Shown here: piece by piece, positions 2,257 through 15,582 of the stretch
Layout: the number at the start of each line of letters is the position of its first letter
How positions within the stretch are numbered: position 1 is the first letter of the stretch
Assembly (NCBI GenBank): GCA_013334845.1
Contig: JAAXWV010000001.1
Location: 1-26,969 of the forward strand
Direction of reading: 5' to 3'
Source: Candidatus Roizmanbacteria bacterium
GTDB taxonomy: Bacteria > Patescibacteriota > Microgenomatia > UBA1406 > GWC2-37-13
Length of the DNA: 26,969 nucleotides
Program-made: the position numbers and the translations under genes
Notes under the pieces: model-generated
Seen by the model: the letters and a program-made list of their open reading frames with translations, nothing else
What the model was told of the DNA's origin: nothing
Database searches by the model: none

Positions 2257-2409
2257 CTACTGACCGCAAATCTCACATGGTATTAAGTGATTAATTAACG
2301 CAAGCAAGTCTTCGTCAGAAGTCTCTTCTATGGTATCTGCTAAGTCGTAATATCGGCATTCGCAAACTTCATCAATCGCTTGTTTTTCTAGTGTTTCGCG
2401 CTTTTCCAT
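2257..2409 (-). CDS. 50-aa acidic Cys-rich protein (not in the ORF track): MEKRETLEKQAIDEVCECRYYDLADTIEETSDEDLLALINHLIPCEICGQ
   Basis: Translated by hand; GGAGG 4 nt before the ATG; CxC and CxxC motifs; lies directly downstream of a predicted promoter. Confidence 0.65.
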   Translation of the reverse strand: MEKRETLEKQAIDEVCECRYYDLADTIEETSDEDLLALINHLIPCEICGQ

Positions 2410-2431
2410 ATATCCTCCATAATAACTTTAT

Positions 2432-2459
2432 CCAGCCGAATTGTTAACGTACAACCTCT
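2432..2459. repeat. Right copy of the 29-bp inverted repeat; predicted first 28 nt of the leftward transcript
   Basis: CCAGCCGAATTGTTAACGTACAACCTCT, complementary to 1990-2018. Confidence 0.9.
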
Positions 2460-2465
2460 ATATAA

Positions 2466-2494
2466 ATAGTACCACTAATTAAAACAGTAAGCAA
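2466..2494 (-). promoter_or_regulatory. Leftward promoter for the 50-aa/RHH/64-aa/integrase cluster
   Basis: Minus strand TTGCTT, 17-nt spacer, TACTAT with an extended TG; +1 predicted near 2459. Confidence 0.6.
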
Positions 2495-2615
2495 TACTTT
2501 TTATGGCTATTTTTACATAAAATATATGGAATTCCGGTATTTGCTATATCTACCCTTAATTACTACTGTTAACTATTGCTATTATTCTCTCTTTCTTATA
2601 TATAAATATATAGAA

Positions 2616-3452
2616 ATGAATGATAGATCAAGTATAAACATCAAAGATGGTCGGTCAACTATAAAACAACCTCAAATAGACACATTAGAAGTACTGTATA
2701 AATATCGGTTTGGTAGTAGAAAATTAATTGCTAATTTACTTAAAGTCAACGAAAAAACATTATACAAAAAACTCATAGTATTAGTAAAACATGGTCTTAT
2801 TGGTAGTAAATTAGATAACAAATCTAAAATAAAAGGTTTGCCGGTTGCATATTACCTGGCGCCTAAAGGTCTAAAGTTTCTTCAATCACTCGAAAAACAC
2901 ACACATATCACTGACAAGATTATAAAGAGCAGTTACCGTGATAAATCCGCCTCCGAAACTACTATCGTACATTCTTTCGATGTCTTCTCGCAGATTCTTG
3001 CATTGATACAACCTTATCCGCTTCTCAAGGCCTATCTGCGTCGTGATATGAGCCGGTTTAGCTATTTCCCAAAAACTCTACCAGACGCCTTCTTATCGTT
3101 GTCTGACGGCAATACTACTAAGCGCTTTTTCTTTGATTACATTTCAGATAGCCAAGAGCGTAAAGCATTCTTTCAAAGAGTGTATACCTATATCGATTTT
3201 TTTGACCAAGGCGGCTGGAATATAACAAATACCGAAACACCCGTCCTGTTGTTTGTTGCCGAGAAAGCTAGTACCGAACGTCGAATTAGACGTCTTATAA
3301 AAGGCGTTATTAGTAAAATGGATTTAAGTGAAGAGATCGCTGCTTACACCACGACGAAAAAAGCCATCGAACGCATAGACAGTGACGCGGCAATATGGAC
3401 AAGCATTGACGAGCCGGACGAACTCATCTCATTAGTTGCGTGTGATACTTGA
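2616..3452 (+). CDS. Replication-relaxation (Replic_Relax, PF13814-like) protein, candidate relaxase; start at 2616 preferred over 2526
   Basis: LYKYRF N-terminal motif, YYL..KG, conserved His region, PDAF and RFFFD motifs; the first 30 codons of the longer ORF are AT-rich intergenic-like sequence. Confidence 0.72.
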   Translation: MNDRSSINIKDGRSTIKQPQIDTLEVLYKYRFGSRKLIANLLKVNEKTLYKKLIVLVKHGLIGSKLDNKSKIKGLPVAYYLAPKGLKFLQSLEKHTHITDKIIKSSYRDKSASETTIVHSFDVFSQILALIQPYPLLKAYLRRDMSRFSYFPKTLPDAFLSLSDGNTTKRFFFDYISDSQERKAFFQRVYTYIDFFDQGGWNITNTETPVLLFVAEKASTERRIRRLIKGVISKMDLSEEIAAYTTTKKAIERIDSDAAIWTSIDEPDELISLVACDT

Positions 3453-3476
3453 GCCTTTTTTGGTCTTGCTCAGGAC
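3450..3476 (-). repeat. 27-nt repeat copy 2, pseudoknot-like (GTCCTGAGCAAGACCAAAAAAGGCTCA)
   Basis: 24/27 identical to 3689-3715; overlaps the relaxase TGA stop on the opposite strand. Confidence 0.85.
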
Positions 3477-3484
3477 ATATCGGA

Positions 3485-3661
3485 TTACTCTTCGACAACA
3501 ATATCTTTGGTCAAACCAATGTGCGATACGCTATCGGTCACGCTACCGGTTTTATCAATCCAAACCTGTACGTAGAATGGTTCAACGTACCAACCGTTTG
3601 CTTTGGCTATCTTAGCCCAAAATGCTCGGTTCTTTTCAATCTCTGTTCGTAATACTTTCAT
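3485..3661 (-). CDS. 58-aa hypothetical protein (not in the ORF track): MKVLRTEIEKNRAFWAKIAKANGWYVEPFYVQVWIDKTGSVTDSVSHIGLTKDIVVEE
   Basis: Translated by hand; AAGGAG SD; co-oriented with the DUF3768 gene. Confidence 0.7.
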   Translation of the reverse strand: MKVLRTEIEKNRAFWAKIAKANGWYVEPFYVQVWIDKTGSVTDSVSHIGLTKDIVVEE

Positions 3662-3688
3662 AACTTACTCCTTTACGATTAATTTTGA

Positions 3689-3715
3689 TGAGCCTTTTTA
3701 CGTCTTACTCAGGAC
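3689..3715 (-). repeat. 27-nt repeat copy 1, pseudoknot-like (GTCCTGAGTAAGACGTAAAAAGGCTCA)
   Basis: 24/27 identical to 3450-3476; 239-bp period. Confidence 0.85.
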
Positions 3716-3723
3716 GAAAAAAT

Positions 3724-4032
3724 CTAATACTCCTCGGCCAACATGACCGTAAGTACTCGTTCACATTCCGGATGTAATGGATCGCACCACATCTCGAAAG
3801 ACGGATCGTAGTAATCTATCTTCCAGAAAACCGTCTGGTTTTCCCAAGTTAGCTTTCCAAAATCATGTTCGCCATGAGGATCGTTATCCTCATTAAACCT
3901 GTCATAACTACGAATAGTTCTAATCAAGCCCAAGGTATCTCTAAACTCGAATATGCCTCGAGTCAGGCTCATAGTCTCGACCTTGCGAAACTCATCGTTA
4001 CGCTTTGCTACCTTTTCTGCGACTTCGTTCAT
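3724..4032 (-). CDS. DUF3768-like protein
   Basis: NDEFR, DNDPHGEHDFG, FWKIDYYD and RVLTVMLAEEY motifs; AAAGGAG SD. Confidence 0.8.
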   Translation of the reverse strand: MNEVAEKVAKRNDEFRKVETMSLTRGIFEFRDTLGLIRTIRSYDRFNEDNDPHGEHDFGKLTWENQTVFWKIDYYDPSFEMWCDPLHPECERVLTVMLAEEY

Positions 4033-4088
4033 AAAGAACTCCTTTCGATTCGAGTGGTGCTAATACCGACCACTTCACAGGAAGGACG

Positions 4089-4171
4089 CAAAGCAATATA
4101 GGTTCGTCAAGGTGGAGCGCCCTTGACGTTTACCAAAGGACGAACGACCTTGATGGTTCTAGATTGCTTTG
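4089..4171. other. Nested inverted repeats (candidate oriT or ssDNA element)
   Basis: CAAAGCAAT(4089-4097)/ATTGCTTTG(4163-4171) enclose CGTCAAGG(4105-4112)/CCTTGACG(4121-4128). Confidence 0.45.
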
Positions 4172-4289
4172 TATAATGAGAAGACAGTGGGAGGAAAGAA
4201 AAAATAAACAAGTCAGTAACTGATAAGTACACGGGTTGTCAGTATATATTCCAATCAAGTGCTGATTATAATACGAGTATAATTAATCC

Positions 4290-5741
4290 ATGAGTAGTGG
4301 ACCGAGATCAGGAAAGCGAAGGAAGCCCAGCAAGATTGGGCGTAATGACCCTTGCTTCTGCGGAAGTGGTCTAAAATATAAAAAATGCTGTCTTTTAAAA
4401 GGTATAAACTTACCTAAAGCTTTAGAAATTCCGCAAGAAGTAATTGACAAAGAACGAGGAGCTGCGCGACGTAGAGAAGAGTACCTACAGAGCAAGGGTA
4501 TATATATTAGCCTTCCGAATACCATACATTTCAAAGGTAAGACTATGTTAGCTGTTGGGAATAAGGTGATGGTTGATGATAACCCCCATGCGACTTTCCA
4601 TCAACTTCTATTTAGAAACCTGCAGCAATCCTTGGGCGAACAATGGTGGAACGAACAGAACGATAAAACAGACACAGAAAAGCATTACATTAAGATTTGT
4701 TTTGAAAACCTGAAAGGCTCTGATACAAGAACTGACCTCGACGTAGCGCAGATTGACGAGAATACACGCTCTATGCTTACCACGGGCGACACCCAGTCAT
4801 TATTAAGTCTTGCTTTTGATGTTTGGTTACTGGCGCAAAAAGGATATCTTCGTGACGACTGGTTGAATAGGCTTCGTGACAGGAATCAATATCAAGGTGT
4901 TCGTTATGAAATCGGTGTCGCATCCATGTTTGTTCGTATGGGGTGCGAGCTTGAATTCTACGATAATGATCGCATTGAAGAAGACGGTAATCCGCCTAAG
5001 AGGGCTGAATTTATTGCCGTACATACCGAGACGGGAAATCGTGTTGCGGTTGAGGCAAAAAGTAGGCATGTGCACGGAGTTATACATACTCCTGGCACGC
5101 CCAACTATCGTGATGCACTAAAGGGCGATATTACTGAACTCTATAAAAAAGCATTAAAAAAGGTGACCGATGGCTTGCCGCTGGTAATATTTGTGGATGT
5201 CAATTCGCCTACCGAAGCAATGCAAGCCGCCCAAGATACGAAATGGTATCAAGACGTGCGACGCTCTTTTGATAGTAGACCGACACCAACGGAAGAGAAT
5301 CCTGATAAATATGCGGCTCTATTCGTTACGAATTTCTCGCCTCATTATCAGGGTAATGGAATCTCTGCGGGCGGACAATATCTCTTCATGGGTAGCCTGC
5401 ATTCGGAAAATTCGTTTACCGATGGTCATTATGGTGGATTTATGAAGAAACTAATTCGGTCTGTTAGTAACTACGGCTATACCCCTCCAAGTATGGATAA
5501 TGACAAGTTGGGCGTGTATGAGCAGGCATCTGGCCTAAATAAGGCAAGCTTTGAAAGAAAGATACGCGAGCTCACTATGCCGACTAGTGATGATCCAGAA
5601 TTTGACCGTCGAAAAATGGAATCGGATAATCTTGTTGAGATGCTAATTTGGGATACGACACAAAAAAGTGGCGGGGGTTGGGATAATAAGGTGGCGGCCG
5701 ATAACTACATACAGTTTGAGTGGTTATTCAAGCAGGCATAA
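4290..5741 (+). CDS. SEC-C motif protein with a putative PD-(D/E)xK nuclease-like domain
   Basis: KIGRNDPCFCGSGLKYKKCC at the N-terminus; AEFIA...AVEAKSR resembles a restriction-fold catalytic motif. Confidence 0.7.
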   Translation: MSSGPRSGKRRKPSKIGRNDPCFCGSGLKYKKCCLLKGINLPKALEIPQEVIDKERGAARRREEYLQSKGIYISLPNTIHFKGKTMLAVGNKVMVDDNPHATFHQLLFRNLQQSLGEQWWNEQNDKTDTEKHYIKICFENLKGSDTRTDLDVAQIDENTRSMLTTGDTQSLLSLAFDVWLLAQKGYLRDDWLNRLRDRNQYQGVRYEIGVASMFVRMGCELEFYDNDRIEEDGNPPKRAEFIAVHTETGNRVAVEAKSRHVHGVIHTPGTPNYRDALKGDITELYKKALKKVTDGLPLVIFVDVNSPTEAMQAAQDTKWYQDVRRSFDSRPTPTEENPDKYAALFVTNFSPHYQGNGISAGGQYLFMGSLHSENSFTDGHYGGFMKKLIRSVSNYGYTPPSMDNDKLGVYEQASGLNKASFERKIRELTMPTSDDPEFDRRKMESDNLVEMLIWDTTQKSGGGWDNKVAADNYIQFEWLFKQA

Positions 5742-6008: not shown

Positions 6009-7298
6009 CTATAAATAGAGCTTTCGATTCTTGTAGAACTTATCCAGTATGGAATCTTCTACGCCAAGATTTTTTAGCAGAGAATATTCCAACAGAAATA
6101 CCATTCTATTGGCGTTGATGTATTTATCGTTATAATCCATTACGCTGGCCTCGTCTTTTGCCTGAATCTTCACGTGAGATAACTTATTTCTCGTGATTCG
6201 GATTCGATTATAGTCTTTTGGGTCTATAATTCTTTCAGCTTTCGGGAAGACTTCATTTAATGTCTTTACGGCTTTGTCTGGGGATACCTCAAATTTGCCA
6301 GTTTCAACACTTACATACCCCTCTAATGCACTCACAACGTCCTTGAAATAGTTGTTTATATTTTTGGGAGAATTGGATCTGATTGAAGAAAATAAGTCAA
6401 ACATGTCGGTGTGTTTGTTCTTGTCGCTAAACCACTTGTCAAAGATTTTCTGACTATCCTTTTTAATGTCAGCAAATACAAAACTCATTTCGTGTTGGTG
6501 TATATTTTTCTTCTTAACATTATCCTTTGACTTCGTAACCATGGTGACATATTTCTTTTGTCTGCCTCTGCCCACTAGCACCCTAAAGTTAGTAGGCTCA
6601 ACATCTCTACCTATTGCAATAGATAAAAATCTTCGTATATGTGCGTAAGTTTCTTGGGCGGCAGATAATTCTATACCCTTGGCAGATTCTATTTTCACAT
6701 TGCAGCCCTGTGATATATGGATGTCCGTTGATGGCGACATCGGCATTGAACCTCTGTATATAGTGAATGCTAGCTTAAAGTCTTTACATTTATAGGCAAT
6801 AATATCTTTGGGAGACCTTATTTCAACTTTGTTTGTGATGTCATTCTTCTTTAACTTCTTACCTTCTTTTGGAAAGATAGTCGTGATAGTTATGATTCCG
6901 TCGCCAATCCAATTGAAGACATTCGGATATTCAACATAGTATTTTTTGAACTTGAGATTATCTATTCTGTCAAAGTGTTCCCCCTCAAAGATTCTACCAA
7001 GACTGTATGTATCTACTTTGTATCCATAATCAGCATTCATAGTCAAAGTGGTCGCAGGGTTAGCAAAATACTCAAGTGTGTATCGTCTGCTTCCGCTACG
7101 AGATACCCCTATGATTGTTTTATCTTGAATTGGACGCACTAGTCCTGGTGTGATTTTGCCGTATACGCCAGGCTTGAACCCCTCGAAACTTCCATTAAGC
7201 TCCAATTTACCATCATCAACTAATAAGTCGCCAGGCACTTTATTGTTAGGGTTATCGGACATCCACCACATGCCTGATATGCGGCTAGAGTCTGTCAT
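6009..7298 (-). CDS. ApeA-like HEPN-domain protein (putative anti-phage RNase)
   Basis: N-terminal GMWW..DNP...VPGDL.....LELNG (ApeA NTD-like), ALEGY, and the HEPN RxxxxH motif RNKLSH. Confidence 0.78.
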   Translation of the reverse strand: MTDSSRISGMWWMSDNPNNKVPGDLLVDDGKLELNGSFEGFKPGVYGKITPGLVRPIQDKTIIGVSRSGSRRYTLEYFANPATTLTMNADYGYKVDTYSLGRIFEGEHFDRIDNLKFKKYYVEYPNVFNWIGDGIITITTIFPKEGKKLKKNDITNKVEIRSPKDIIAYKCKDFKLAFTIYRGSMPMSPSTDIHISQGCNVKIESAKGIELSAAQETYAHIRRFLSIAIGRDVEPTNFRVLVGRGRQKKYVTMVTKSKDNVKKKNIHQHEMSFVFADIKKDSQKIFDKWFSDKNKHTDMFDLFSSIRSNSPKNINNYFKDVVSALEGYVSVETGKFEVSPDKAVKTLNEVFPKAERIIDPKDYNRIRITRNKLSHVKIQAKDEASVMDYNDKYINANRMVFLLEYSLLKNLGVEDSILDKFYKNRKLYL

Positions 7299-7316
7299 AT
7301 ATTAGAATTCTCAACC

Positions 7317-7334
7317 ATACTTACTAGTAAGTAT
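7317..7334. promoter_or_regulatory. Perfect 18-bp palindrome ATACTTACTAGTAAGTAT (operator candidate)
   Basis: Self-complementary; overlaps back-to-back TATACT hexamers (minus 7330-7335, plus 7332-7337). Confidence 0.6.
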
Positions 7335-7570
7335 ACTATGGAACAAGTATCACAGGTATGTACGACTGTCTATCCAAGACTGATGCAACCTTGCTACATT
7401 AAAGTTATAAACTTCTTTATCATATGGTGTCTTTTAGGACCATGCCCAGGTTGCGTGGCTGGTCGAGATTCTTTTCGATTACCTCGACCCAACTAATACG
7501 GTCAAAGGCGCAATAAAGCAAATCTTGCCAAAGGACGATATATATTTGAAAAATATCATATAATATCATT

Positions 7571-8626
7571 ATGTCGAAAGGAATAAATACAAAGATAATT
7601 AGATACCCTCACAGTACGTCGATAATATTAGACTCTAATATTTATATTGCTGATTTCCATCGAAGGTCTAAGGCATTTGAGGGTTTAAACAGGTACCTGA
7701 AACTAACAAGTTCATTGGTATATATACCCGAAGTAGTTTATAAAGAAGTATTAAATACTTACGAGACAGGTGCCGCTGAATTCATTAAATATATCAACAA
7801 GCAGAAACGTAATTTTTCTAGTGCTGTATCAACAGTAAAGACACCCCAAGCTTTAATTGAAGAGTATAAAAGAGCATGGGATTTTGATATAAAGTACGAT
7901 CACCATTACGAAATAATAGGCAGCGAGGCAATAAAGCTAGATAAGCTTATAGATAAGGCGATTAAAAAAAGTAAGCCCTTTAGTCCTTCGGGTACCGGTT
8001 TTAGGGACGCGGTGATATGGGAAAATGTTGTCAACCTTGCCGCTTCATCAAATGAGCAAGTTGTATTCATTTCAAATAATGGCAAAGATTTCGGTCATGA
8101 AAAACTTGATGAGAATTTATTTAATGAAGTTAGCATATACAAGAATCCTGTTAAATACTTCAGTGATATCGCAGGTTTCTTGCAAGAGTACGCATCAAAT
8201 CTGGAATTTTTGAGCAAAGAGACTGTTCAAGGTTGGATTGATAATGTAGACGAATTGTTTACAATAGAGGCGACCGATTTACTAAGTGAAGAATATGAGT
8301 ATATCTTTAATTTAGATAAACATGACTTTCCTATACCGCTTGAGTATACAAACTATGACTTTTTAGATACCGAATATCTTACTTCAGATTTAACTGATTA
8401 CTATATATATCGAGAAGATGACGACTATTATTATATTGAGGTTATAGTGTCAATTTATATAAAAACTACCTTAGTATATGAATACACAGTAATGGGTGTG
8501 GGTGGTAATAATGTAAATAAAACAGATGGCGAAGATTTGTATGGATCAAAATTAAGCACAATACAATTTAAGGTTAATAAAATCACTCATGAAAGTAAAC
8601 TGTTTATAGATAAAAATACCCTTTAA
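7571..8626 (+). CDS. PIN-domain protein (DUF4935-like)
   Basis: IILDSN, IPEVVYKEV, KPF...GFRDAVIWE and FISNNGKDF acidic PIN motifs. Confidence 0.82.
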   Translation: MSKGINTKIIRYPHSTSIILDSNIYIADFHRRSKAFEGLNRYLKLTSSLVYIPEVVYKEVLNTYETGAAEFIKYINKQKRNFSSAVSTVKTPQALIEEYKRAWDFDIKYDHHYEIIGSEAIKLDKLIDKAIKKSKPFSPSGTGFRDAVIWENVVNLAASSNEQVVFISNNGKDFGHEKLDENLFNEVSIYKNPVKYFSDIAGFLQEYASNLEFLSKETVQGWIDNVDELFTIEATDLLSEEYEYIFNLDKHDFPIPLEYTNYDFLDTEYLTSDLTDYYIYREDDDYYYIEVIVSIYIKTTLVYEYTVMGVGGNNVNKTDGEDLYGSKLSTIQFKVNKITHESKLFIDKNTL

Positions 8627-8739
8627 GTTTAACCCATCGGCACACCTTCCTGCCCATTACGTATAATGAGGAGATATGTAAATGGAAGGATAGTTAATAA
8701 TCAAAAGCAAAAATGTGATGTGTTTCTTGTAATTATTAC

Positions 8740-10473
8740 TTATTTTTCTGCACGACTCTTACGTTTAGACCTATCGTGAAAAGCCTGTATCCTTTTTAAT
8801 AGCTCGACTATTTCTAACACCATCTCCTTCTTCACCTTACTTAGATCCGATGATGAGCTATTAGATATCGCCATTAAAGAACTGGTTATAGTGTCGATGT
8901 CCCATCGTTTATTAAATTTGTCATAAAACATAGTAGCAAGCAACCTAGCCACGTTATCTATTAGGCTTGTAGATTGCAATACGTCGGCATATGAATCATT
9001 CCTCAATTCTCTTAGTTTGATGTCGATCATTATGTCCATTGGTCTCGATTTCATAGTGTAGAAATAGAGTACGGATTCATAGCTGTCTAAACCTTCGATA
9101 TTGAGCATAAACCAATAAAAATTTGACATAGCAACTTCATCTGTATCGGGGAATACAAATTCAGTAACATAATCTATTCTTTCAAAATCAACACTATCGA
9201 TCTCATCGAATTTATTGAATATCCACGACTTATATATCTGTACCACAACAAGACCTAAAGACTTTTTTATGCAAAGATCATAGTGCTTCACCCTCCACTC
9301 AACCATAGTAGAATCTGTAATAAATATACTATCAAATTCATCTTCAGTTGAGATTGATCTTGTACCATCAAATATTGAGTCGAAGGTTGTAAATAAAAAG
9401 TTACGCATCATCGAGTAAGCGTGCTTATTTTTATCTGTTCCGAGAAAGTTAATATTCACATCAGTACATCTGGTATGAAAATCTCTCATTAACTCGAATA
9501 CATTAGTGGAGAATTCATCTTTGGAACTATCAATGAAGATTTTTTTTGTAATTTTTAGCAGTAATTCGGAAATTTTAGCATACAAGTCAGCATAGGTAAG
9601 GTCGCTGCTATCTAGCATTACCTCGTTATTATAAAACATATCCAAGAAACGCTCTAAATAGTAGCTTAAATATACTGGCTTTTGTGAATACCTATTGACT
9701 ATATATTTTTCGTACATTTTTAGCATATCAATAGAACGACTAATCGCCCTAAGATCGTCAATATGACTTAGATTGTCTGTCAAGATAGATAAAAAATAAT
9801 CATGTAATTCATCTTCAAAATCAAATGGCAATCTTGGCTCTCTCCATATTGAGTTCCATGGTCTGACGTCATCAGACTTTACTAATGCGAATACTACTCT
9901 AGCGAACCGATATGAACTACCGGCTTCAAAATATCCATCCTCTTTAGTGTTCAGATCGGTTACAAGATCAGTTAGCCACAGATATGACCTGAATAGAGAG
10001 CCGATAAAAAATACCCAAGCGAGAATAATCGCTGGCGAAAGATACAGTTTAAATATTCCATTTGGTATAAGTGCGTAGGCTAAAACAAAAACTGTTGCGA
10101 TCACCAAACCCTTTAGGCGTATAACATATTTAACTAGGGTCATTCGCATAAAAACTATTCTACTGTCATCAATTAGAGATATGGCTACAGGTATAAAGAG
10201 TGATATTAAAACAGCAGTAATACCTATGGCGTGATCAGAAAAGCTATCTCCAAAAAAAGCATGGGGAATATTATCTGGGTTCCATATCAGTAACAAAAAT
10301 AATAAAATAAATAGTAACAAATACCCAACTGTGATTGTTAGTCTTGATAACAATTTCTGTTGATTAAATCTATAAATAAACGGCCCCGAAGAGTAATATC
10401 TATCAATAGAATAAGAGGGGTGTATATATGGATTTTTTGAAATATTAATTATCTTCTTGAGGCGAGACCACAT
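8740..10473 (-). CDS. Hypothetical membrane protein (about 4 N-terminal TM helices plus a long helical cytoplasmic region)
   Basis: Hydrophobic stretches such as TVGYLLLFILLFLLLIW and AIGITAVLISLFIPVAISL; 577-aa ORF with a promoter-like upstream sequence. Confidence 0.7.
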   Translation of the reverse strand: MWSRLKKIINISKNPYIHPSYSIDRYYSSGPFIYRFNQQKLLSRLTITVGYLLLFILLFLLLIWNPDNIPHAFFGDSFSDHAIGITAVLISLFIPVAISLIDDSRIVFMRMTLVKYVIRLKGLVIATVFVLAYALIPNGIFKLYLSPAIILAWVFFIGSLFRSYLWLTDLVTDLNTKEDGYFEAGSSYRFARVVFALVKSDDVRPWNSIWREPRLPFDFEDELHDYFLSILTDNLSHIDDLRAISRSIDMLKMYEKYIVNRYSQKPVYLSYYLERFLDMFYNNEVMLDSSDLTYADLYAKISELLLKITKKIFIDSSKDEFSTNVFELMRDFHTRCTDVNINFLGTDKNKHAYSMMRNFLFTTFDSIFDGTRSISTEDEFDSIFITDSTMVEWRVKHYDLCIKKSLGLVVVQIYKSWIFNKFDEIDSVDFERIDYVTEFVFPDTDEVAMSNFYWFMLNIEGLDSYESVLYFYTMKSRPMDIMIDIKLRELRNDSYADVLQSTSLIDNVARLLATMFYDKFNKRWDIDTITSSLMAISNSSSSDLSKVKKEMVLEIVELLKRIQAFHDRSKRKSRAEK

Positions 10474-10601
10474 AAATATATCTTAGCATTAATTAGTGTG
10501 AATAGGGACGGTTACTTCATCTATTGCTCTAATGATGAAAGTTTGAACATCCATCCACATATTTTTGAATCCGCTCTTGCTTATCATGCTATAATATGGT
10601 C

Positions 10602-10982
10602 ATGAAACAAATAACACAAGAATATGGACTACAAAATCAAGGTGGATTTAGCGATACACGTTTAAGATTTTTCGTGCTTGGGTTTATGAGTTTAGGTCTA
10701 ATCATGACACCATTTTTAGGAATGTTAGCGTCATTTATCGTGATGTTAATTTTTGCAATATTTACTGCAGTTAAAATCAATGAGTTTCAACAAAGTAATC
10801 AAGAGTCTATTTTGCTTCATCGTCAAGCTATGGATCGAATGTATAATTACGGTGCCAAAGCTGAGTATTATAGGATGCTGCTAAAACCATACGAAAAGAA
10901 AGCAATTAATCGAGCCGCTAAATCTCGAAAAGCCAATCAAATTAATCATATAAACAGTTTAAATCTAGCATTAAGTAGATAG
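10602..10982 (+). CDS. Small membrane protein; start at 10602 preferred over 10596
   Basis: Two-TM hydrophobic block; TGcTATAAT lies 6 nt before ATG 10602. Confidence 0.6.
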   Translation: MKQITQEYGLQNQGGFSDTRLRFFVLGFMSLGLIMTPFLGMLASFIVMLIFAIFTAVKINEFQQSNQESILLHRQAMDRMYNYGAKAEYYRMLLKPYEKKAINRAAKSRKANQINHINSLNLALSR

Positions 10983-10993
10983 GCGTAAACCTT

Positions 10994-11446
10994 TTATGCT
11001 GGTACTGGGAAAGACTCGCCAGATAATAACTTTCTCAGTTCATCAGTGGTAACAATTTTCATACCAGTAAGAATTTTTTCTAATTCTTCGCGTTTCCCGT
11101 TTGAAGATGGATCATTTCTGATATCACGAATGAAATCTTTTGGGTTATTTGTCACAAAATACTCACATTTCGCATGATAAGCAGAGTACAAATGTGCCAA
11201 GTCAAATCTGTCACTAACTTTATTTGGATGCATTATATCTTCTATGTCATCAATATCGTCGCCCGCCAAATAATCTCCTCCACCGAGAGTAGATACGCCT
11301 AGCATGAACACGCCCGGTATACTGTCGGCATGGCGGAGTTTTTGCTCGTAGTGACCTACATGCACCACCTCTAAATCATGTAGTCTTTTAAGATTTGTGA
11401 TTTTCTTTCGATCGACTCCTTGATCTATATACACCTTAGTACTCAT
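10994..11446 (-). CDS. Small PIN-like protein (TTG at 11452 is an alternative start)
   Basis: VYID at the N-terminus; D..HLYSA....CEYFVTNNPKDF is typical of the PIN C-terminal motif. Confidence 0.6.
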   Translation of the reverse strand: MSTKVYIDQGVDRKKITNLKRLHDLEVVHVGHYEQKLRHADSIPGVFMLGVSTLGGGDYLAGDDIDDIEDIMHPNKVSDRFDLAHLYSAYHAKCEYFVTNNPKDFIRDIRNDPSSNGKREELEKILTGMKIVTTDELRKLLSGESFPVPA

Positions 11447-11452
11447 GCTCAA

Positions 11453-11764
11453 CTAGACCTTACTGTTTTTAACTGCATCAAGTACCTCACGATGGCGTAA
11501 TTCATCACGTTTATTCTTGCGCGATCCGCGTCGCCAGAGACGAAATGGAATAAATAAGATACCGAACAATACGTACATCACAAAATACCAAAGCATAACG
11601 AACATCCATGCGATACAAACCAAACAAATAGCAATTGGTATAAGAACCGCCCATTTCAATATCATATTACCTGTTTCAGTAATTTCCCAAATTCTCTGGT
11701 AAGAACCTGCAAATGAAAGAGGTGCTGAAATTACTATTTTTTCCGACGCTAGCTTATTAGACAT
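11453..11764 (-). CDS. 103-aa membrane protein with a basic C-terminal tail
   Basis: Long hydrophobic segment, then RRGSRKNKR; starts 2 nt after the REase stop. Confidence 0.7.
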   Translation of the reverse strand: MSNKLASEKIVISAPLSFAGSYQRIWEITETGNMILKWAVLIPIAICLVCIAWMFVMLWYFVMYVLFGILFIPFRLWRRGSRKNKRDELRHREVLDAVKNSKV

Positions 11765-11766
11765 AG

Positions 11767-13557
11767 TTACCAGACTGATACTAACTCTTTAAGATTTTCT
11801 TGCCACTGCGTAGAGTCTGTATGTGCAGCAACCGTGCCACTAAGGTTGCTAACTAGATCCTCTAGAGTTGCATTCCCAAGACTGCCAGATACAATCCTGC
11901 TGCGTGCACTTTTTAGGAAATCTACGAATTGCTCAATAGTTAGAGGAAAAATATTTTGAGGTCTGCCCTCAAATTCATACTTATTACTTATCCAGAATGT
12001 GTTCAAGGTATCTCTATGTATGTGTGGTGCAACAAATAAGCAAAACGCCTTCTTTTTAGGAATTGTATTTTCGAAATCACGTAAATGTCGCATCACAGGT
12101 TGACCTTCTGCGGTCCACTGATCGCGTCCGCAAAGTAGAGTTACCTCTACTGTCATGCCAAAGTTATCATACTCACATTCGATATCTGAAAGATTACCCC
12201 TAAAGCCTGTTGGTAGACCGTCGTCGCCAACCTTATAGCTTGGTTCGATACGCAATGCATCATTTAATACCATCATAGCTCTAGATACGTACCATTCAAA
12301 ATCCAGCGATGGCCTAGAAGTGACTGGTTCATATCTACTACTAGAAATGATTGATATTTTATGGATAGCTTCATCCAGTGCGCTGACATCATGACGTAAT
12401 AAACGTAATTTTTCGATCCTAACATCATTAATCTTTTCCTGCAGTATGTCCACCTGTTTTACTAGAGTCTTGCCGATAATATCCGAATTATCGATTGCCA
12501 CAGAAACTTCTTTTGCTTCGCTGTCGAGTATCTCAGTAAGATTATCGGTAATTTTCTGTAAGTCTTTTTCATTTTGCCATGGCAGATCGTATGATAAGTC
12601 ACCGAGGTATTCAAGATAAGCTTCTGCCGTCGTAAAATCTAGAGACTGGATAGACACTGATTCCACGATGCTCATAGCCTCAGCCATTTTGTCTTTTGCG
12701 ATATCTACGTGTCTGCCAGCGCCTCGCAGTGCTATCAAACCAGATATTCGGAAATACCTAAGAGATGAGTCTGCATAATCTCTCAAACTTCCGATCTGCC
12801 TTCTAAGATTATCCTCATTTGAGTAACCATAAATAGCTATGACTCGTTGACGTTCGAAATTGCTGATAAAATCGCTTCTTTCCTTGCCAGACAAGTTGTG
12901 AGATTTTTGTCTGAATGCAATTATCTGCGTTGTTGCCAACTCGATAGAATTTTTTGACTTAAGAGAAAGCGCGAAAAGTCGGTACTCTCCCTTGGACAAA
13001 CCTACTGGCTGATTGCCGAGTTGTTGCCATGCGTCATTTACGCCTTTTATTAGACGTAAAACTGCGGGGAAGGGTTTTATATCAAATTCATTATATCCAG
13101 ACTCAATTGGGTTTGGGTATTGCCAACGGAGAAGAAACCTAGTAAAAAGTTCTTCGTCATCAATCTCACCACTTAGCCATTTTTTTCCAAGAGGAGTAAT
13201 AATAACCGAGCTATGCGACTGTAGGGCGATACATAACCCGAATCTATTCAATACAGCAACAGACGTACGGCCTCGACCAGCACTGTCGACACTCCCTCTA
13301 TATTTATCTATTATCCGATTGACGGTATTATCATCAATGTCTTCGTTCGGATCGGAGTCATAGACTGCGCTTGAAAGATCATCCCCGAGCGTGGCTCGCG
13401 TCGGTGTATAAAATCGCTTCTTAATTTGCAAGCCAAAAAAATGCTCTTGGCCACCGGCGTCAAAAGTAGTGCCCTCCATATCACTCAAGATACGAAGCAG
13501 GTTTTCCATTCGTTCTGGATTACGTACTGTAGTATTAAAACTCCATACTTCTGCCAT
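11767..13557 (-). CDS. AlwI-family type IIS restriction endonuclease
   Basis: WSFNTTVRNPER N-terminus, LLRWQYP, DYADSSLRYFR, DIEC...VEVTL...Q...EGQPVMRH; adjacent to a double methyltransferase. Confidence 0.85.
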   Translation of the reverse strand: MAEVWSFNTTVRNPERMENLLRILSDMEGTTFDAGGQEHFFGLQIKKRFYTPTRATLGDDLSSAVYDSDPNEDIDDNTVNRIIDKYRGSVDSAGRGRTSVAVLNRFGLCIALQSHSSVIITPLGKKWLSGEIDDEELFTRFLLRWQYPNPIESGYNEFDIKPFPAVLRLIKGVNDAWQQLGNQPVGLSKGEYRLFALSLKSKNSIELATTQIIAFRQKSHNLSGKERSDFISNFERQRVIAIYGYSNEDNLRRQIGSLRDYADSSLRYFRISGLIALRGAGRHVDIAKDKMAEAMSIVESVSIQSLDFTTAEAYLEYLGDLSYDLPWQNEKDLQKITDNLTEILDSEAKEVSVAIDNSDIIGKTLVKQVDILQEKINDVRIEKLRLLRHDVSALDEAIHKISIISSSRYEPVTSRPSLDFEWYVSRAMMVLNDALRIEPSYKVGDDGLPTGFRGNLSDIECEYDNFGMTVEVTLLCGRDQWTAEGQPVMRHLRDFENTIPKKKAFCLFVAPHIHRDTLNTFWISNKYEFEGRPQNIFPLTIEQFVDFLKSARSRIVSGSLGNATLEDLVSNLSGTVAAHTDSTQWQENLKELVSVW

Positions 13558-13578
13558 ACTTGAGATTATATCAAACTA

Positions 13579-15582
13579 TTAGTAGTTAGTAACTAACACT
13601 TCTCGTGTAATATTATTTTTTGCGTTTGATTGATAGTTTGAGTTTTTATAATCGAAGTTCAATATGTGCATATTTAACCCTAGTCGCTCGACCCACTTTT
13701 GGAGAATAGCATTCTTTGTGCCCTTATGTTCGATAACATTAGAGAGTGCGAATCGTATTTTTTGTTTATTCAGACTAGTCAACACATCATAGAGGTCGTT
13801 TTCGTCTTTTTCGGACCATCCACCGCTCTCGTTGTATGCAGCCAAGCCAAGTAGATATGGCGGATCTAGGTATACAAAATCTTTACGGGATAACTTGTAA
13901 TTAAGAAGATCCCTAAAATCCCCGGTTGTAAATTCAATATTTTTATCATTTGCAGCTTGGTTAAATTCGGCAAGATTGCGTCGTAAACTACCGTTATAAT
14001 CACGTTTTCCAACAGGTAAGTTAAATTCTCCTTTTGAGTTAAAGCGGATCTGATTATTAAACGAATACATCACCAGTACTAACAGTAGCAACGTTTTCTT
14101 TCTTGAAGTTTTTGTTTTATTGTACGCAGCTCGTAACGACAGGTAGCGTTCTTTGTTGAATACACCTAGTCCTTTTGAACTTTCTGCGCCATATGCGTCA
14201 TAACCATTTACATAGCTTTGGCTTAATCCATGCTCGTTTACGACTTCTAGTATTTCTTGGTGTAGCTCCTCAAAATTAGTGGATTTCATCAAACTTAGCA
14301 AGTGAACTACGTTATCGTTCTTGTCAACACAAACTACGCTTTTACTATGTGCATTAACGCCTACGTTCGCACCTCCGCAGAATATATCGTAGAAGGTATC
14401 TATGTCTTTAGGTATGTGTTGATTAATTTGTGGCATTAACTTGTGTTTACCACCCGTGTAGTTAAGCGGTGATTTTACAAACTCACGCTTAGATGCATTT
14501 TTATGGGTGGTGATTGTAACTGGTGTTGTTCTTATTTTATTCTCCACACGACAGAAAAATATACGCTCCATTAAGTCGTTCTTATCCGATTTGCCAGTAG
14601 TGAATTGCTTGAAAGTCTTTTCGTATATTGTCAATTTTCCTCGACGTTCCAGCGCAGATACTATTTCATGATCCGTAAGTCGCGACTGTGAACGAGCATT
14701 GCCATGGTCACCCATATCGTTATATGAAACTAAGATATATTTAGTATCTAATTTATCTATTAGGTCGCTAAACGCTTCTCCTGCTGACTTAAGACTGTAC
14801 CTGCTCTTTATGTGGGATCTATCAATTTTTTTTGCGACACCGTAAACTGGATGTTTTCCCCATGATGCGATGTTTTCTAGTAAGTGATACGCATCTGAAT
14901 ATTGACGCGAATTATATGGGGGGTCTATATAGACAACGTCGGCTTTTATCGTTTTAACTAATTCATTTGCATCACATTTATATATATGACTGGAGTGCCT
15001 TGTTTTGATCAAGTTAAGAGGTCGTAGCACTAATTCTTTCTTCGGGATTTCAATTTTTCTGTATGCATCATAGTGCCCAACAGTGTTAGCTATACGATCT
15101 AAAGAATAAATTAGTGATGTGACTAGATAAGCCTTTTCGCGTTCACTTATTTCTCCCGATGTGTACAGATTTTCAATATTCTCTCGTATTGCCCCAATCC
15201 GCTTTGAATTATCGTGATCGAAGTATGTATTTGAAAAGTTACTTGAGAAATAATTTTCATCAAGCATAGCAGCATCTATGGAATTGTATTCATTTATTTT
15301 CGAAAGTGTAACATCAAGTCGAATAGGTTCTTTACCAAAAAAAGCAAGATATGTAATATAGTTAGAATCTAAGATGTCATTAACGATTATGTTAGTCTTG
15401 TTATAGAAATGATGTGCCACTACCCCCGTGCCTGCGAAAATGTCAGCAAACGATTTATATACTACGCTCTCTTGCTCTAACGTCTCTTCAATGAATTTCA
15501 ACAATCTTGTTTTACTTCCAAGATAGCGTCGTTGATTTATCTTTACGAATGAACTTTTATTTCCAAAACCTGCATCAATCAT
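13579..15582 (-). CDS. Fused double N6-adenine DNA methyltransferase (D12/Dam class, M.FokI-like architecture)
   Basis: Two sets of motif I (FADIFAGTG, FYDIFCGG) and motif IV (DPPY twice); RRYLGSK and KSPLNYTGGK domain starts. Confidence 0.93.
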   Translation of the reverse strand: MIDAGFGNKSSFVKINQRRYLGSKTRLLKFIEETLEQESVVYKSFADIFAGTGVVAHHFYNKTNIIVNDILDSNYITYLAFFGKEPIRLDVTLSKINEYNSIDAAMLDENYFSSNFSNTYFDHDNSKRIGAIRENIENLYTSGEISEREKAYLVTSLIYSLDRIANTVGHYDAYRKIEIPKKELVLRPLNLIKTRHSSHIYKCDANELVKTIKADVVYIDPPYNSRQYSDAYHLLENIASWGKHPVYGVAKKIDRSHIKSRYSLKSAGEAFSDLIDKLDTKYILVSYNDMGDHGNARSQSRLTDHEIVSALERRGKLTIYEKTFKQFTTGKSDKNDLMERIFFCRVENKIRTTPVTITTHKNASKREFVKSPLNYTGGKHKLMPQINQHIPKDIDTFYDIFCGGANVGVNAHSKSVVCVDKNDNVVHLLSLMKSTNFEELHQEILEVVNEHGLSQSYVNGYDAYGAESSKGLGVFNKERYLSLRAAYNKTKTSRKKTLLLLVLVMYSFNNQIRFNSKGEFNLPVGKRDYNGSLRRNLAEFNQAANDKNIEFTTGDFRDLLNYKLSRKDFVYLDPPYLLGLAAYNESGGWSEKDENDLYDVLTSLNKQKIRFALSNVIEHKGTKNAILQKWVERLGLNMHILNFDYKNSNYQSNAKNNITREVLVTNY

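What the first reader, a model, noticed from the sequence alone, without database searches (positions are those of the whole stretch)
3450..3726. Pseudoknot-like 27-nt repeat exactly 8 nt after two consecutive stop codons
Seen on the minus strand: GUC-C-UGAG(C/U)-AA-GAC-N2-AAAAAG-GCUCA follows both the DUF3768 TAG (3724) and the 58-aa ORF TAA (3485) with an identical 8-nt spacer. It folds as an H-type pseudoknot: stem 1 GUC/GAC, stem 2 UGAG(C/U)/GCUCA, A-rich loop 3. The one variant position in stem 2 keeps pairing (C-G to U-G) only on the gene strand, and the other two differences fall outside the shared stems. A stop plus 8 nt plus pseudoknot is the geometry of the MuLV readthrough signal, but an in-frame TGA comes 4 codons later in both copies, so productive readthrough is unlikely. 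Inference: a 3'-end protector, a ribosome termination/reinitiation element, a protein- or ligand-binding RNA, or a DNA repeat that makes the 239-bp unit an exchangeable cassette. I do not recognise it as a named family. Stem 1 is only 3-4 bp.
Basis: partly seen in the sequence, partly recalled or inferred. Interest (0 to 1): 0.72.

Follow-up and report, generated by a model that had tools for sequence, protein, structure and literature searches.

The report
Stop-codon-anchored RNA pseudoknot ending gene cassettes
The two repeats are real copies of a tiny (28-base) interlocked RNA fold, found in no RNA catalogue, that phages, plasmids and this conjugative element place a few bases after the stop codon of small genes; it probably marks and shields the end of each message, and gene cassettes are gained and lost at it.

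Summary
Observation confirmed. GTCCTGAG(C/T)AAGAC-NN-AAAAAGGCTCA lies on the minus strand at 3450-3476 and 3689-3715, each 8 nt after a stop codon (0 chance matches expected).

It is a genuine H-type RNA pseudoknot, 28 nt long. Both stems covary strongly across more than 140 phage, plasmid and bacterial loci. G.U pairs form only on this strand, and all copies within a locus share one strand.

Rfam 15 gives no hit even at E<=10, and no paper was found. Earlier notes of this scan describe what is very probably the same fold in phages.

Nine relatives of this Saccharibacteria conjugative element carry one pseudoknot after every gene in the slot between DUF3768 and the convergent relaxase gene (1, 2 or 3 units, with different cargo ORFs). 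Contigs from other metagenomes differ from the window by a whole 542-551-nt unit inserted exactly at the pseudoknot edge.

MuLV-type readthrough, frameshifting, preQ1 riboswitch, attC and HDV-like ribozyme membership all fail.

Function is inferred, not shown. The most likely role is a 3'-boundary or end-cap module of each cistron, whose conserved 28 bp also serves as a crossover point. Phage tRNA genes often start 1-8 nt after it, which suggests that RNase P cutting leaves it as the terminal structure.

The parts
3689..3716 (-). Pseudoknot copy 1 (28 nt): stem 1 is 3716-3713 with 3704-3701; loop 1 is C 3712; stem 2 is 3711-3707 (UGAGU) with 3693-3689 (GCUCA); junction AA; 7-nt A-rich loop 3
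   Evidence: covariance model 43.5 bits, E 1.5e-8; pairing scheme from family covariation
3450..3477 (-). Pseudoknot copy 2 (28 nt), same layout; stem 2 is UGAGC/GCUCA; the outermost stem 1 pair is a U.C mismatch
   Evidence: 41.2 bits
3724..4032 (-). DUF3768 gene (102 aa), first cistron of the slot; stop TAG at 3724-3726
   Evidence: Pfam PF12599, E 6e-24; 153 homologues, mostly in Saccharibacteria-type contigs
3717..3723 (-). 7-nt spacer between the DUF3768 stop codon and the first stem base of copy 1; relatives carry a 542-551-nt extra unit at this point
   Evidence: read laying joints 3716|3717 and 3716|3724
3662..3688 (-). Leader of the 58-aa ORF with Shine-Dalgarno AAGGAG; conserved together with copy 1 in relatives that carry a different cargo ORF
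   Evidence: blastn homology with L141 runs through copy 1 and the leader and stops at about 3659, just inside the cargo ORF whose ATG is 3659-3661
3485..3661 (-). 58-aa cargo ORF (no Pfam family); stop TAA at 3485-3487. An orthologue lies in L148; other relatives have 69-, 76-, 92-, 103- or 159-aa ORFs here
3478..3484 (-). 7-nt spacer between the TAA and copy 2
2526..3452 (+). Convergent Replic_Relax (relaxase-like) gene; its stop TGA (3450-3452) is the complement of the last three bases (UCA) of copy 2
   Evidence: Pfam PF13814; the same 3-nt overlap occurs in L141, L155, L156, L157 and L158 (gene tables against model hits)

Best explanation
Both repeats are transcribed as part of the DUF3768 operon of an integrative conjugative element. 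Each folds into a compact 28-nt H-type RNA pseudoknot: stem 1 of 4 bp with an invariant C-G at the junction, a one-base loop 1 (invariant C), stem 2 of 5 bp, an AA junction and a 7-nt A-rich loop 3.

The fold is a portable 3'-boundary module. Every cistron in the variable slot ends with stop codon + 5-9 nt + pseudoknot. This places the folded RNA just beyond the mRNA channel of a ribosome that is terminating, so it can stay folded.

Inferred mechanism: the pseudoknot, probably stiffened by loop-3 adenines docked in the stem 1 minor groove as in luteovirus pseudoknots, defines and shields the 3' end of the upstream message. It would block 3'-to-5' exonucleases after termination or after an endonuclease cut downstream (RNase P where a tRNA follows), and it would insulate neighbouring cistrons.

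As a by-product, its near-invariant 28 bp, present after each gene, gives the homology at which whole gene-plus-pseudoknot units are inserted, lost or swapped.

Shown here: the fold, the strand, the anchoring to stop codons, the wide distribution and the unit-wise polymorphism. Inferred: the triplex, the exonuclease block and the recombination mechanism.
For: Fold:
- In 66 unique 28-mers recovered with a pattern that left stem 1 free, 65 have Watson-Crick pairs at each inner stem 1 position, with 4 and 3 pair types. Partner shuffles give means of 38 and 31 and a maximum of 47.
- In a 110-sequence alignment, 94.6% of cells pair against 76.7% when shuffled, and the covariation score is 0.536 against 0.199 (0/500 shuffles reach it). 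Sliding the partners gives at most 37% paired.
- Stem 2 shows UGAGC/GCUCA, UAAGC/GCUUA, UGAAC/GUUCA, UAAAC/GUUUA, UGGGC/GCCCG and UAGGC/GCCUA, plus 47 G.U cells that would be A.C mismatches on the other strand.

Strand and place:
- All copies lie on one strand in 60 of 60 multi-copy loci.
- Neighbouring genes are co-oriented in 118 cases and convergent in 26, against 11 divergent and 7 opposite.
- The distance from the stop codon to the first stem base peaks at 5-7 nt (27 of 93; stop-triplet peak at 6), while the distance to the next start codon is broad at 17-65 nt.
- G is almost absent at +1 and +2 after the fold, at 1% and 3%.

This element:
- In 9 relatives (DUF3768 69-93% identical) the model finds one pseudoknot after every gene of the slot: 1 gene/1 copy in L157; 2/2 in L141, L145, L148, L156 and L158; 3/3 in L155. 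The cargo ORFs are unrelated.
- The DUF7995 unit measures 542-543 nt from pseudoknot to pseudoknot, which equals the 542- and 551-nt inserts that other metagenome contigs carry exactly at 3716|3717-3724. One contig shares only the 28 nt 3689-3716 with the window on the downstream side of the insert.

3'-end role:
- Copy 2 has no downstream gene; it abuts the convergent relaxase stop codon.
- In phages the fold lies 1-8 nt before 10 of 12 tRNA 5' ends, directly before sigma-70-type promoters (L120), or before convergent genes.

Distribution:
- It is present in at least 94 IMG/VR contigs with one restricted pattern and in MAG contigs of Geobacteraceae, Desulfobacterota, Hyphomicrobiales and Saccharibacteria.
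- Close matches lie in unannotated intergenic stretches of cultured phages of Streptococcus, Streptomyces and Vibrio (sequences read) and of three plasmids (plasmid hits not inspected).
- It was not found in 100 genomes of the host's own family.
Against: - No RNA data: no 3' ends, processing sites or half-lives were observed.
- Nine base pairs are few for an exonuclease block.
- In three Desulfobacterota loci a conventional terminator hairpin follows within about 10-20 nt, which would make a protective cap redundant.
- In at least 6 loci the stop codon is the UGA or UAA inside stem 2, so the ribosome must melt the fold.
- Sequence conservation of loops and junction is higher than a mere roadblock seems to need, which hints at a specific partner or chemistry.
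- Minimum-free-energy folding of the nested parts is not better than shuffles (z -0.9 to -1.5), although that method cannot model pseudoknots.
- Cargo ORFs shared by relatives are no more similar than the backbone, so recent horizontal cassette transfer is not shown, only gain and loss.
Confidence: 0.45

Rival explanations
1. Translation-level element. Sitting at the entrance of the mRNA channel when the stop codon is in the A site, the fold would tune termination, stop post-termination ribosomes from sliding or scanning into the next cistron, or gate a weak Shine-Dalgarno (AAGG) that lies inside loop 3 and stem 2.
For: The sharp 5-7 nt spacing from stop codons is the spacing used by recoding pseudoknots. 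In Vibrio phage 1.238.A the next ATG starts 3 nt after the fold, so the only Shine-Dalgarno-like bases are the AAGG inside it. Other start codons lie 9-12 nt after it.
Against: The fold also lies directly before tRNA genes, promoters and convergent genes, where no translation follows. Most downstream genes have their own Shine-Dalgarno 17-65 nt away. Spacers of -8 and 18-22 nt also occur.
Confidence: 0.2
2. RNA-processing signal. The fold would be a recognition site for a host or element endoribonuclease (RNase P, E or III type), or a new minimal self-cleaving RNA, that cuts polycistronic transcripts into single-gene messages and frees tRNAs.
For: It occupies gene-boundary and pre-tRNA positions like those of phage RNase III sites and small ribozymes, with 10 of 12 tRNAs starting 1-8 nt after it. 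Loop and junction bases are invariant: C3, C4, A10, G12, A18-A20 and G23. Small pseudoknots with a 3' RCCA can be RNase P substrates (PMC12710915, seen).
Against: 28 nt is far smaller than any known natural self-cleaving ribozyme (own knowledge). No RCCA is conserved after it. Rfam ribozyme families gave no hit in 142 kb of pseudoknot-rich loci. The 31-33 nt before the fold in the tRNA array are AT-rich, with no obvious helices to my eye, so it is not part of an HDV-like theta ribozyme.
Confidence: 0.15
3. Aptamer or decoy. The fold would bind a small ligand (riboswitch) or a protein, for example a host defence nuclease or an RNA chaperone, and mobile elements would carry it for regulation or counter-defence.
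For: The architecture resembles preQ1-I-type pseudoknot aptamers. Loop and junction bases are extremely conserved across phyla. It is enriched on phages, plasmids and a conjugative element, and absent from 100 genomes of the host family.
Against: Neighbouring genes are unrelated (no shared protein family), and several copies have no downstream gene to regulate. There is no match to any riboswitch family at E<=10. Up to 7 copies occur per 10 kb.
Confidence: 0.1
4. DNA-level site. The repeat would be a recombination site (attC-, dif- or res-like) or a protein operator, with the RNA fold incidental.
For: Units are gained and lost exactly at its edges, and the element encodes a large serine recombinase.
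Against: Covariation includes 47 G.U cells that are mismatches on the other strand. Orientation follows transcription. It occurs singly in operons and before tRNAs in unrelated genomes with no shared recombinase nearby. It has none of the attC R''/L''/L'/R' architecture.
Confidence: 0.05
5. MuLV-type stop-codon readthrough signal or -1 frameshift stimulator.
For: Stop codon + 8 nt + compact H-type pseudoknot is the MuLV geometry. The fold resembles 28-nt luteovirus frameshift pseudoknots.
Against: An in-frame TGA lies 4 codons on. There is no conserved extension ORF or slippery heptamer. The spacer varies, so the frame relation is not kept (spacers of 5, 6 and 7 nt all common). It also precedes tRNAs.
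Confidence: 0.02

Closest known systems
Luteovirus/enamovirus compact H-type pseudoknots (BWYV, PEMV-1, ScYLV -1 frameshift stimulators)
   Same: Size (about 28 nt), H-type topology, a very short loop 1 containing an invariant C next to the helical junction, and an A-rich loop crossing the minor groove of stem 1. The fold starts 5-8 nt after the codon in the ribosomal A site.
   Different: There is no slippery heptamer and no overlapping -1 ORF. It sits after stop codons, before tRNAs and before promoters, in DNA phages, plasmids and bacteria. Stem lengths are 4+5 bp rather than 5+3 bp. The structural resemblance is from my own knowledge of the BWYV structure and was not tested.
MuLV gag-pol readthrough pseudoknot
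   Same: Stop codon followed by an 8-nt spacer and a pseudoknot.
   Different: The MuLV element is about twice as large and is followed by a long in-frame ORF. Here a second stop codon follows after 4 codons and the spacing is not fixed.
REP/BIME extragenic palindromes of enterobacteria
   Same: Repeated, strand-oriented structured elements just after stop codons. They stabilise the upstream cistron against 3' exonucleases and act as recombination hot spots.
   Different: REPs are plain GC-rich hairpins, species-specific and present in hundreds of chromosomal copies. This is a cross-phylum pseudoknot carried by mobile elements and was not found in 100 genomes of the host's family.
PeSL (promoter-early stem-loop) cassettes of T4-type phages (Arbiol et al. 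2010, PMC2839356; lead from an earlier scan note, paper not read here)
   Same: A conserved short structured repeat flanks small accessory ORFs in a hyperplastic region and serves as a crossover point for modular shuffling.
   Different: PeSLs combine a hairpin with an early promoter and are confined to one phage group. This fold contains no promoter and follows genes rather than preceding them.
MALAT1/MEN-beta triple-helix 3' end made by RNase P cleavage upstream of a tRNA-like structure
   Same: A compact A-rich tertiary structure lies immediately upstream of a tRNA(-like) 5' end, so RNase P cutting would leave it as the terminal, exonuclease-resistant structure.
   Different: That is a eukaryotic nuclear lncRNA with a U-rich/A-rich triple helix of a different fold. 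The analogy is functional only and untested.
preQ1-I riboswitch (RF00522)
   Same: A minimal H-type pseudoknot with an A-rich 3' tail.
   Different: There is no covariance-model match at E<=10, no queuosine-related genes nearby, and many copies have no downstream gene.

Membership tests
Any Rfam 15 family | Covariance-model match at the gathering score, or at least at E<=10 | tested here: not met
   Whole window at gathering score: only tRNA-Leu. Window 3380-3780 at E<=10: no match. 142 kb of pseudoknot-rich phage loci: only tRNAs.
MuLV-type readthrough signal | Leaky stop codon followed in frame by a long ORF that is expressed as a fusion | tested here: not met
   An in-frame TGA follows 4 codons after both stop codons. 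No extension ORF exists in any locus.
MuLV-type readthrough signal | Fixed spacer of about 8 nt between the stop codon and the pseudoknot | tested here: not met
   Spacers to the first stem base are 5 (6 cases), 6 (13), 7 (8), 8-9 (4), -8 (6) and 18-22 (22).
-1 programmed frameshift stimulator (luteovirus type) | Slippery heptamer X XXY YYZ 5-9 nt upstream and an overlapping -1 ORF | tested here: not met
   The upstream 12 nt show no conserved heptamer, only an A-rich bias. Stop codons lie there instead.
-1 programmed frameshift stimulator (luteovirus type) | Compact H-type pseudoknot with an A-rich loop over stem 1 | tested here: met
   Both stems covary. Three adenines of loop 3 (motif positions 18-20) are invariant. 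The triplex itself is not testable with these tools.
Integron attC site | Imperfect palindrome with R''/L''...L'/R' cores (GTTRRRY), 57-141 bp, with an IntI integrase nearby | tested here: not met
   The unit is 28 nt with no GTTRRRY cores. No tyrosine integrase is in the window; the recombinase is a serine type. The G.U pairs are strand-specific.
HDV-like / theta ribozymes (Kienbeck 2024, PMC10879173) | Nested double pseudoknot (P1, P1.1, P2, P3) with a catalytic C, and a cleavage site at the 3' end of a tRNA | tested here: not met
   Only two helices are present. The fold lies 5' of tRNAs, not 3' of them. The flank towards the preceding tRNA is AT-rich with no obvious helices. No Rfam ribozyme hit.
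Type III antitoxin RNA (ToxI-like) | Tandem 34-45-nt repeats directly upstream of a ToxN/AbiQ-type endoribonuclease gene | tested here: not met
   Copies are 239 nt or more apart and separated by ORFs. The flanking genes are DUF3768, small ORFs and a relaxase. No PADLOC scan was run.
Intrinsic (Rho-independent) terminator | GC-rich hairpin followed by a U-tract | tested here: not met
   The terminator scan of 3300-4320 found none. Only 18 of 204 copies have at least 6 T in the next 9 nt.
Stop-anchored phage gene-boundary pseudoknot (family named only in earlier notes of this scan: e1-5348825, e1-3410594) | A 27-28-nt covarying H-type pseudoknot a few bases after stop codons, several copies per phage, uncatalogued | tested here: inconclusive
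   All described features match what I found. The notes show no sequence, so identity of the family could not be checked.

The most novel reading that the evidence does not exclude
The fold is a self-sufficient RNA end-cap for prokaryotic mobile elements. It would be a 28-nt triple-helix pseudoknot that becomes the 3' terminus of each message after termination or after RNase P (or another nuclease) cuts just downstream, and that blocks 3' exonucleases. This would be a bacterial and phage counterpart of the MALAT1/PAN triple-helix ends, and it would double as the crossover point of a cassette system that needs no integrase. A bolder variant is that it is the smallest natural self-processing RNA.
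Probability: 0.3. Interest if true: 0.85.

Novelty: new variant of a known kind. Interest (0 to 1): 0.75.

Why it matters
A 28-nt RNA with two covarying helices and eight invariant bases, shared by phages, plasmids, a CPR conjugative element and chromosomal operons of several phyla, must meet a strong and general constraint. Yet it is absent from Rfam and from the literature I could search.

If it is a portable message end-cap or insulator, three things follow:
- It would explain how compact mobile elements that lack conventional terminators (none was found around this slot) set the stability of single cistrons.
- It would give a tiny, host-independent part for synthetic operons.
- It would show how an RNA-level constraint creates DNA homology that drives integrase-free cassette exchange.

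For annotation, a covariance model of it marks true gene ends, including those of very small ORFs, in phage and CPR sequence.

Tried and rejected
- Rfam at gathering score and at E<=10: nothing.
- Full-text searches for the motif letters and for descriptive terms: only primer coincidences and unrelated papers. The 10,006-candidate phage RNA survey (PMC10690425) does not mention it, and its supplements are not held.
- Nested MFE folding of either strand: not better than shuffles. The method cannot model pseudoknots.
- Window 2400-4300 against plasmids: no match.
- The GTC/GAC form of the motif with 3 mismatches in 60 relatives and 400 genomes of the phylum: none. That pattern wrongly fixed stem 1, so a model search of 100 same-family genomes was run as well, and it also found none.
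- E. coli genomes: only chance 20-mers inside traH.
- A protein family shared by the neighbourhoods: none.
- A third partial copy at 4123-4144 suggested by the repeat finder: not supported by the model.
- A sigma-54, ECF or phage-polymerase promoter, an oriT nick site (TCCTG), a serine-recombinase crossover at the 'NN', a SECIS, and 16S complementarity (GCUCAGGAC) were all considered from the sequence. They were dropped once stem covariation, G.U pairs and unrelated contexts were seen.
- An HDV-like/theta ribozyme reading was checked on the tRNA array of L037 and rejected.
- Horizontal transfer of the DUF7995 cargo: its identity between relatives (0.64-0.65) is not above that of the backbone (0.70-0.73), so transfer is not shown.
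Full report
**1. The observation**

On the minus strand the 27-mer GTCCTGAG(C/T)AAGAC-NN-AAAAAGGCTCA occurs at 3689-3715 and 3450-3476. None of 100 dinucleotide-preserving shuffles gave a match. The first copy lies 8 nt after the TAG of a DUF3768 gene (3724-4032; PF12599). The second lies 8 nt after the TAA of a 58-aa ORF (3485-3661). Both stop codons are followed in frame, 4 codons later, by the TGA inside the motif. The assembly (1.84 Mb, 396 contigs) holds no other copy.

**2. Setting**

The window is an integrative conjugative element next to tRNA-Leu (43-126). It carries the following genes:
- a large serine recombinase (14-1807);
- a Replic_Relax relaxase-like gene (2526-3452, plus strand, convergent on the DUF3768 operon);
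- defence-type cargo: ApeA-HEPN, PIN and an AlwI-type restriction-modification pair;
- a type IV secretion set: pilin, PrgI, VirB4-like and coupling protein.

Relatives of the host genome are 0.6-1.6 Mb, and the close DUF3768 homologues that carry a source name are labelled Saccharibacteria or Saccharimonadales. The host is therefore a CPR bacterium.

**3. The motif is a family, not a local duplication**

An exact scan of one genome per species found the 25 specified bases in 11 MAG contigs. These come from Geobacteraceae, Desulfomonilaceae, Thermodesulfobacteriota, Hyphomicrobiales and Saccharibacteria, and their flanks are unrelated. The same pattern hits 13 IMG/VR contigs. Close matches lie in unannotated intergenic DNA of Streptococcus phage Javan119, Streptomyces phage ClubPenguin and N4-like Vibrio phages. 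They also lie in plasmids of Streptomyces, Spirosoma and Klebsiella (not inspected further).

**4. Structure**

The freed positions pair.
- Among 66 unique 28-mers that were not selected for pairing, 65 are Watson-Crick at each of the two inner variable pairs (GC, AU, UA, CG). Shuffled partners give 38 and 31 on average and never more than 47. The junction pair C-G is C-G in 65 of these 66, and in all 110 rows of the alignment below.
- Freeing the inner stem 2 positions gave UAAGC/GCUUA, UGAAC/GUUCA and UAAAC/GUUUA, plus G.U intermediates.
- Orthologous copies after DUF3768 in relatives read UGGGC/GCCCG, UGGGU/GCCCA and UAGGC/GCCUA.
- On a 110-sequence alignment the pseudoknot notation gives 94.6% paired cells (76.7% shuffled) and a covariation score of 0.536 against 0.199 (0 of 500 shuffles reach it). 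Slid partners give at most 37% paired. That alignment was pre-filtered for pairing, so the unbiased counts are the stronger evidence.
- Forty-seven cells are G.U, which would be A.C on the other strand.
- Invariant bases are C3, C4 (loop 1), A10, G12, A18-A20 and G23. They cluster at the helical junction and in loop 3. G is almost excluded from the two bases after the fold (1% and 3%), which would prevent loop 1 C4 from pairing.
- This pattern resembles the junction triples and minor-groove adenines of the 28-nt luteovirus pseudoknots. That comparison rests on my own knowledge and was not tested.
- A second loop 3 subclass (..AAACU instead of ..AAAAG) is common.

**5. Where it sits**

- All copies of a locus are on one strand (60 of 60 multi-copy loci, up to 7 copies in about 10 kb).
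- With crude gene calls, the neighbours are co-oriented on both sides in 118 cases, convergent downstream in 26, divergent upstream in 11 and opposite in 7.
- The distance from the end of the upstream ORF to the first stem base peaks at 5-7 nt (27 of 93). Smaller groups lie at -8, where the ORF stops at the UGA or UAA inside stem 2, and at 18-22, where a small extra hairpin intervenes. The distance to the next start codon is broad. The fold is therefore anchored to the upstream stop codon and not to the downstream gene.
- Spacers of 5, 6 and 7 nt are all common, so the in-frame TGA in the window is a consequence of its 7-nt spacer and not a conserved feature.
- What follows the fold is heterogeneous: the next gene's ribosome-binding site, a sigma-70-type promoter (L120), a T-run (18 of 204), a convergent gene, or a tRNA.
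- Ten of 12 tRNA genes in pseudoknot-rich phage loci begin 1-8 nt after a copy on the same strand. These include three consecutive tRNAs in L037. Six of the ten may come from related phages.

**6. The window's locus in relatives**

Nine distinct relatives (DUF3768 69-93% identical) share this layout: DUF3768, then 0-2 small unrelated ORFs (58, 69, 76, 92, 103 aa, or a 159-aa DUF7995), then the convergent relaxase gene and the serine recombinase.

The covariance model finds one pseudoknot after every gene of the slot: one in L157, two in L141, L145, L148, L156 and L158, and three in L155. Spacers are 5-9 nt, or 14-19 nt after DUF3768 in the more distant relatives.

Homology between the window and L141 runs through copy 1 and the 27-nt leader and stops at about 3659, just inside the cargo ORF. 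It resumes at copy 2.

Contigs of other metagenomes laid on the window show two things:
- a 551-nt insert replacing 3717-3723 in a relative with roughly 90% or more identity to the window (89 differences over about 1,290 aligned bases);
- a variant in the probable source sample with 542 nt inserted at 3716|3717 and unrelated sequence beyond 3689, so that downstream of the insert it shares only the 28 nt of copy 1 with the window.

The pseudoknot-to-pseudoknot period of the DUF7995 unit in L141 and L155 is 542-543 nt, so these inserts are most simply one extra unit.

The relaxase stop codon TGA is the complement of the last three bases of the terminal pseudoknot in the window and in five relatives. 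This leaves 32 nt between the convergent stop codons and no room for a conventional terminator (none was detected).

**7. What it is not**

- It matches no Rfam family.
- It is not a readthrough or frameshift signal: there is no extension ORF, no slippery site and no fixed frame.
- It is not a preQ1-type riboswitch: there is no model match, the neighbours are heterogeneous, and several copies have nothing downstream.
- It is not an attC, dif or res site: the pairing is strand-specific, no shared recombinase is present, and single copies occur in operons such as the Geobacter P-type ATPase loci L003 and L013.
- It is not part of an HDV-like theta ribozyme.
- It is not an intrinsic terminator.

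**8. Most likely mechanism (inferred)**

The fold is a portable cistron-end module. It is placed as close to the stop codon as a terminating ribosome allows, so it can remain folded during translation. It becomes the terminal structure of the upstream message after transcription ends or after a cut just downstream (RNase P where a tRNA follows). It then limits 3'-to-5' decay and insulates neighbouring cistrons.

Its near-invariant 28 bp after every gene provides the homology for unit-wise gain, loss and exchange of small cargo genes. This parallels what REP elements and T4 PeSLs do in their hosts.

I give this about 0.45. That the fold itself is real, RNA-level, widespread and uncatalogued I hold at about 0.9.

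Rivals, in order:
- a translation termination or reinitiation insulator;
- a processing signal or minimal ribozyme;
- an aptamer or decoy;
- a DNA site;
- recoding.

The high conservation of unpaired bases is the main fact that the end-cap model does not fully explain.

**9. Earlier notes of this scan**

Two earlier follow-ups (e1-5348825, e1-3410594) and e1-3598929 describe a 27-28-nt uncatalogued H-type pseudoknot a few bases after phage stop codons. This is very probably the same family, found before on other DNA. I could not compare sequences. New here are:
- the occurrence in a CPR conjugative element and in chromosomal operons;
- the one-pseudoknot-per-gene rule across nine relatives;
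- the unit-sized insertions at the pseudoknot edge;
- the tRNA adjacency.

Noticed in passing
window 4089-4171 (between DUF3768 start 4032 and the SEC-C gene start 4290): A long imperfect inverted repeat (36-nt arms, 75% complementary). It folds at -39.7 kcal/mol, z -3.96. Parts of it recur twice in relatives (L145, L149) and it has raised depth in other metagenomes. A plus-strand promoter-like site lies at 4150-4177. It could be an oriT, an operator or a 5' leader module of the cassettes.
   Followed up: partly
window 3450-3452; L141, L155, L156, L157, L158: The convergent Replic_Relax gene ends with a TGA that is the complement of the last three bases (UCA) of the terminal pseudoknot. The two convergent stop codons are only 32 nt apart and no terminator is detectable.
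   Followed up: partly
L007 ~5262-5330, L009 ~3131-3199, L012 ~3226-3294 (motif-oriented coordinates): In three Desulfobacterota MAGs a short Cys/His-rich ORF (..AHCSEGC..RS) with a good Shine-Dalgarno ends at the UGA inside the pseudoknot and is followed by a terminator hairpin. It may be a small metal-binding peptide or a leader peptide.
   Followed up: no
L003 (motif-oriented 4366-4390) and L013 3078-3102: Two Geobacteraceae genomes carry the pseudoknot 31 and 9-19 nt upstream of homologous P-type ATPase genes (the L003 product starts with a heavy-metal-binding GMDCxxC motif). L006 has it right after an ORF whose C-terminal residues look to me like those of an RND efflux pump (no domain search was run). 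These are chromosomal, metal-efflux contexts.
   Followed up: no
L037 6408-6809; L051, L061, L063, L076, L089, L095, L102: Phage tRNA genes start 1-8 nt after a pseudoknot on the same strand (10 of 12 tRNAs examined). In L037 three consecutive tRNAs each have their own copy.
   Followed up: yes
alignment A2 (columns 22-23): There are two loop 3 subclasses, ..AAAAG and ..AAACU. In the second, U22 could pair with A10 and lengthen stem 2 to 6 bp. No covariation with position 11 was seen.
   Followed up: partly
L017, L018, L019, L042, L050, L065, L080 and others (18-22 nt spacers): A small extra hairpin with its own compensatory changes (e.g. TTTGACTA/TAGTCAAA against TTTGGTTA/TAACCAAA) sits between the stop codon and the pseudoknot in one group of phages.
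   Followed up: no
window 6009-15582: The element's cargo is rich in defence-type genes: ApeA N-terminal + HEPN (6009-7298), PIN_12 (7571-8626), an AlwI-family endonuclease (11767-13557) and a fused D12-class methyltransferase (13579-15582).
   Followed up: no
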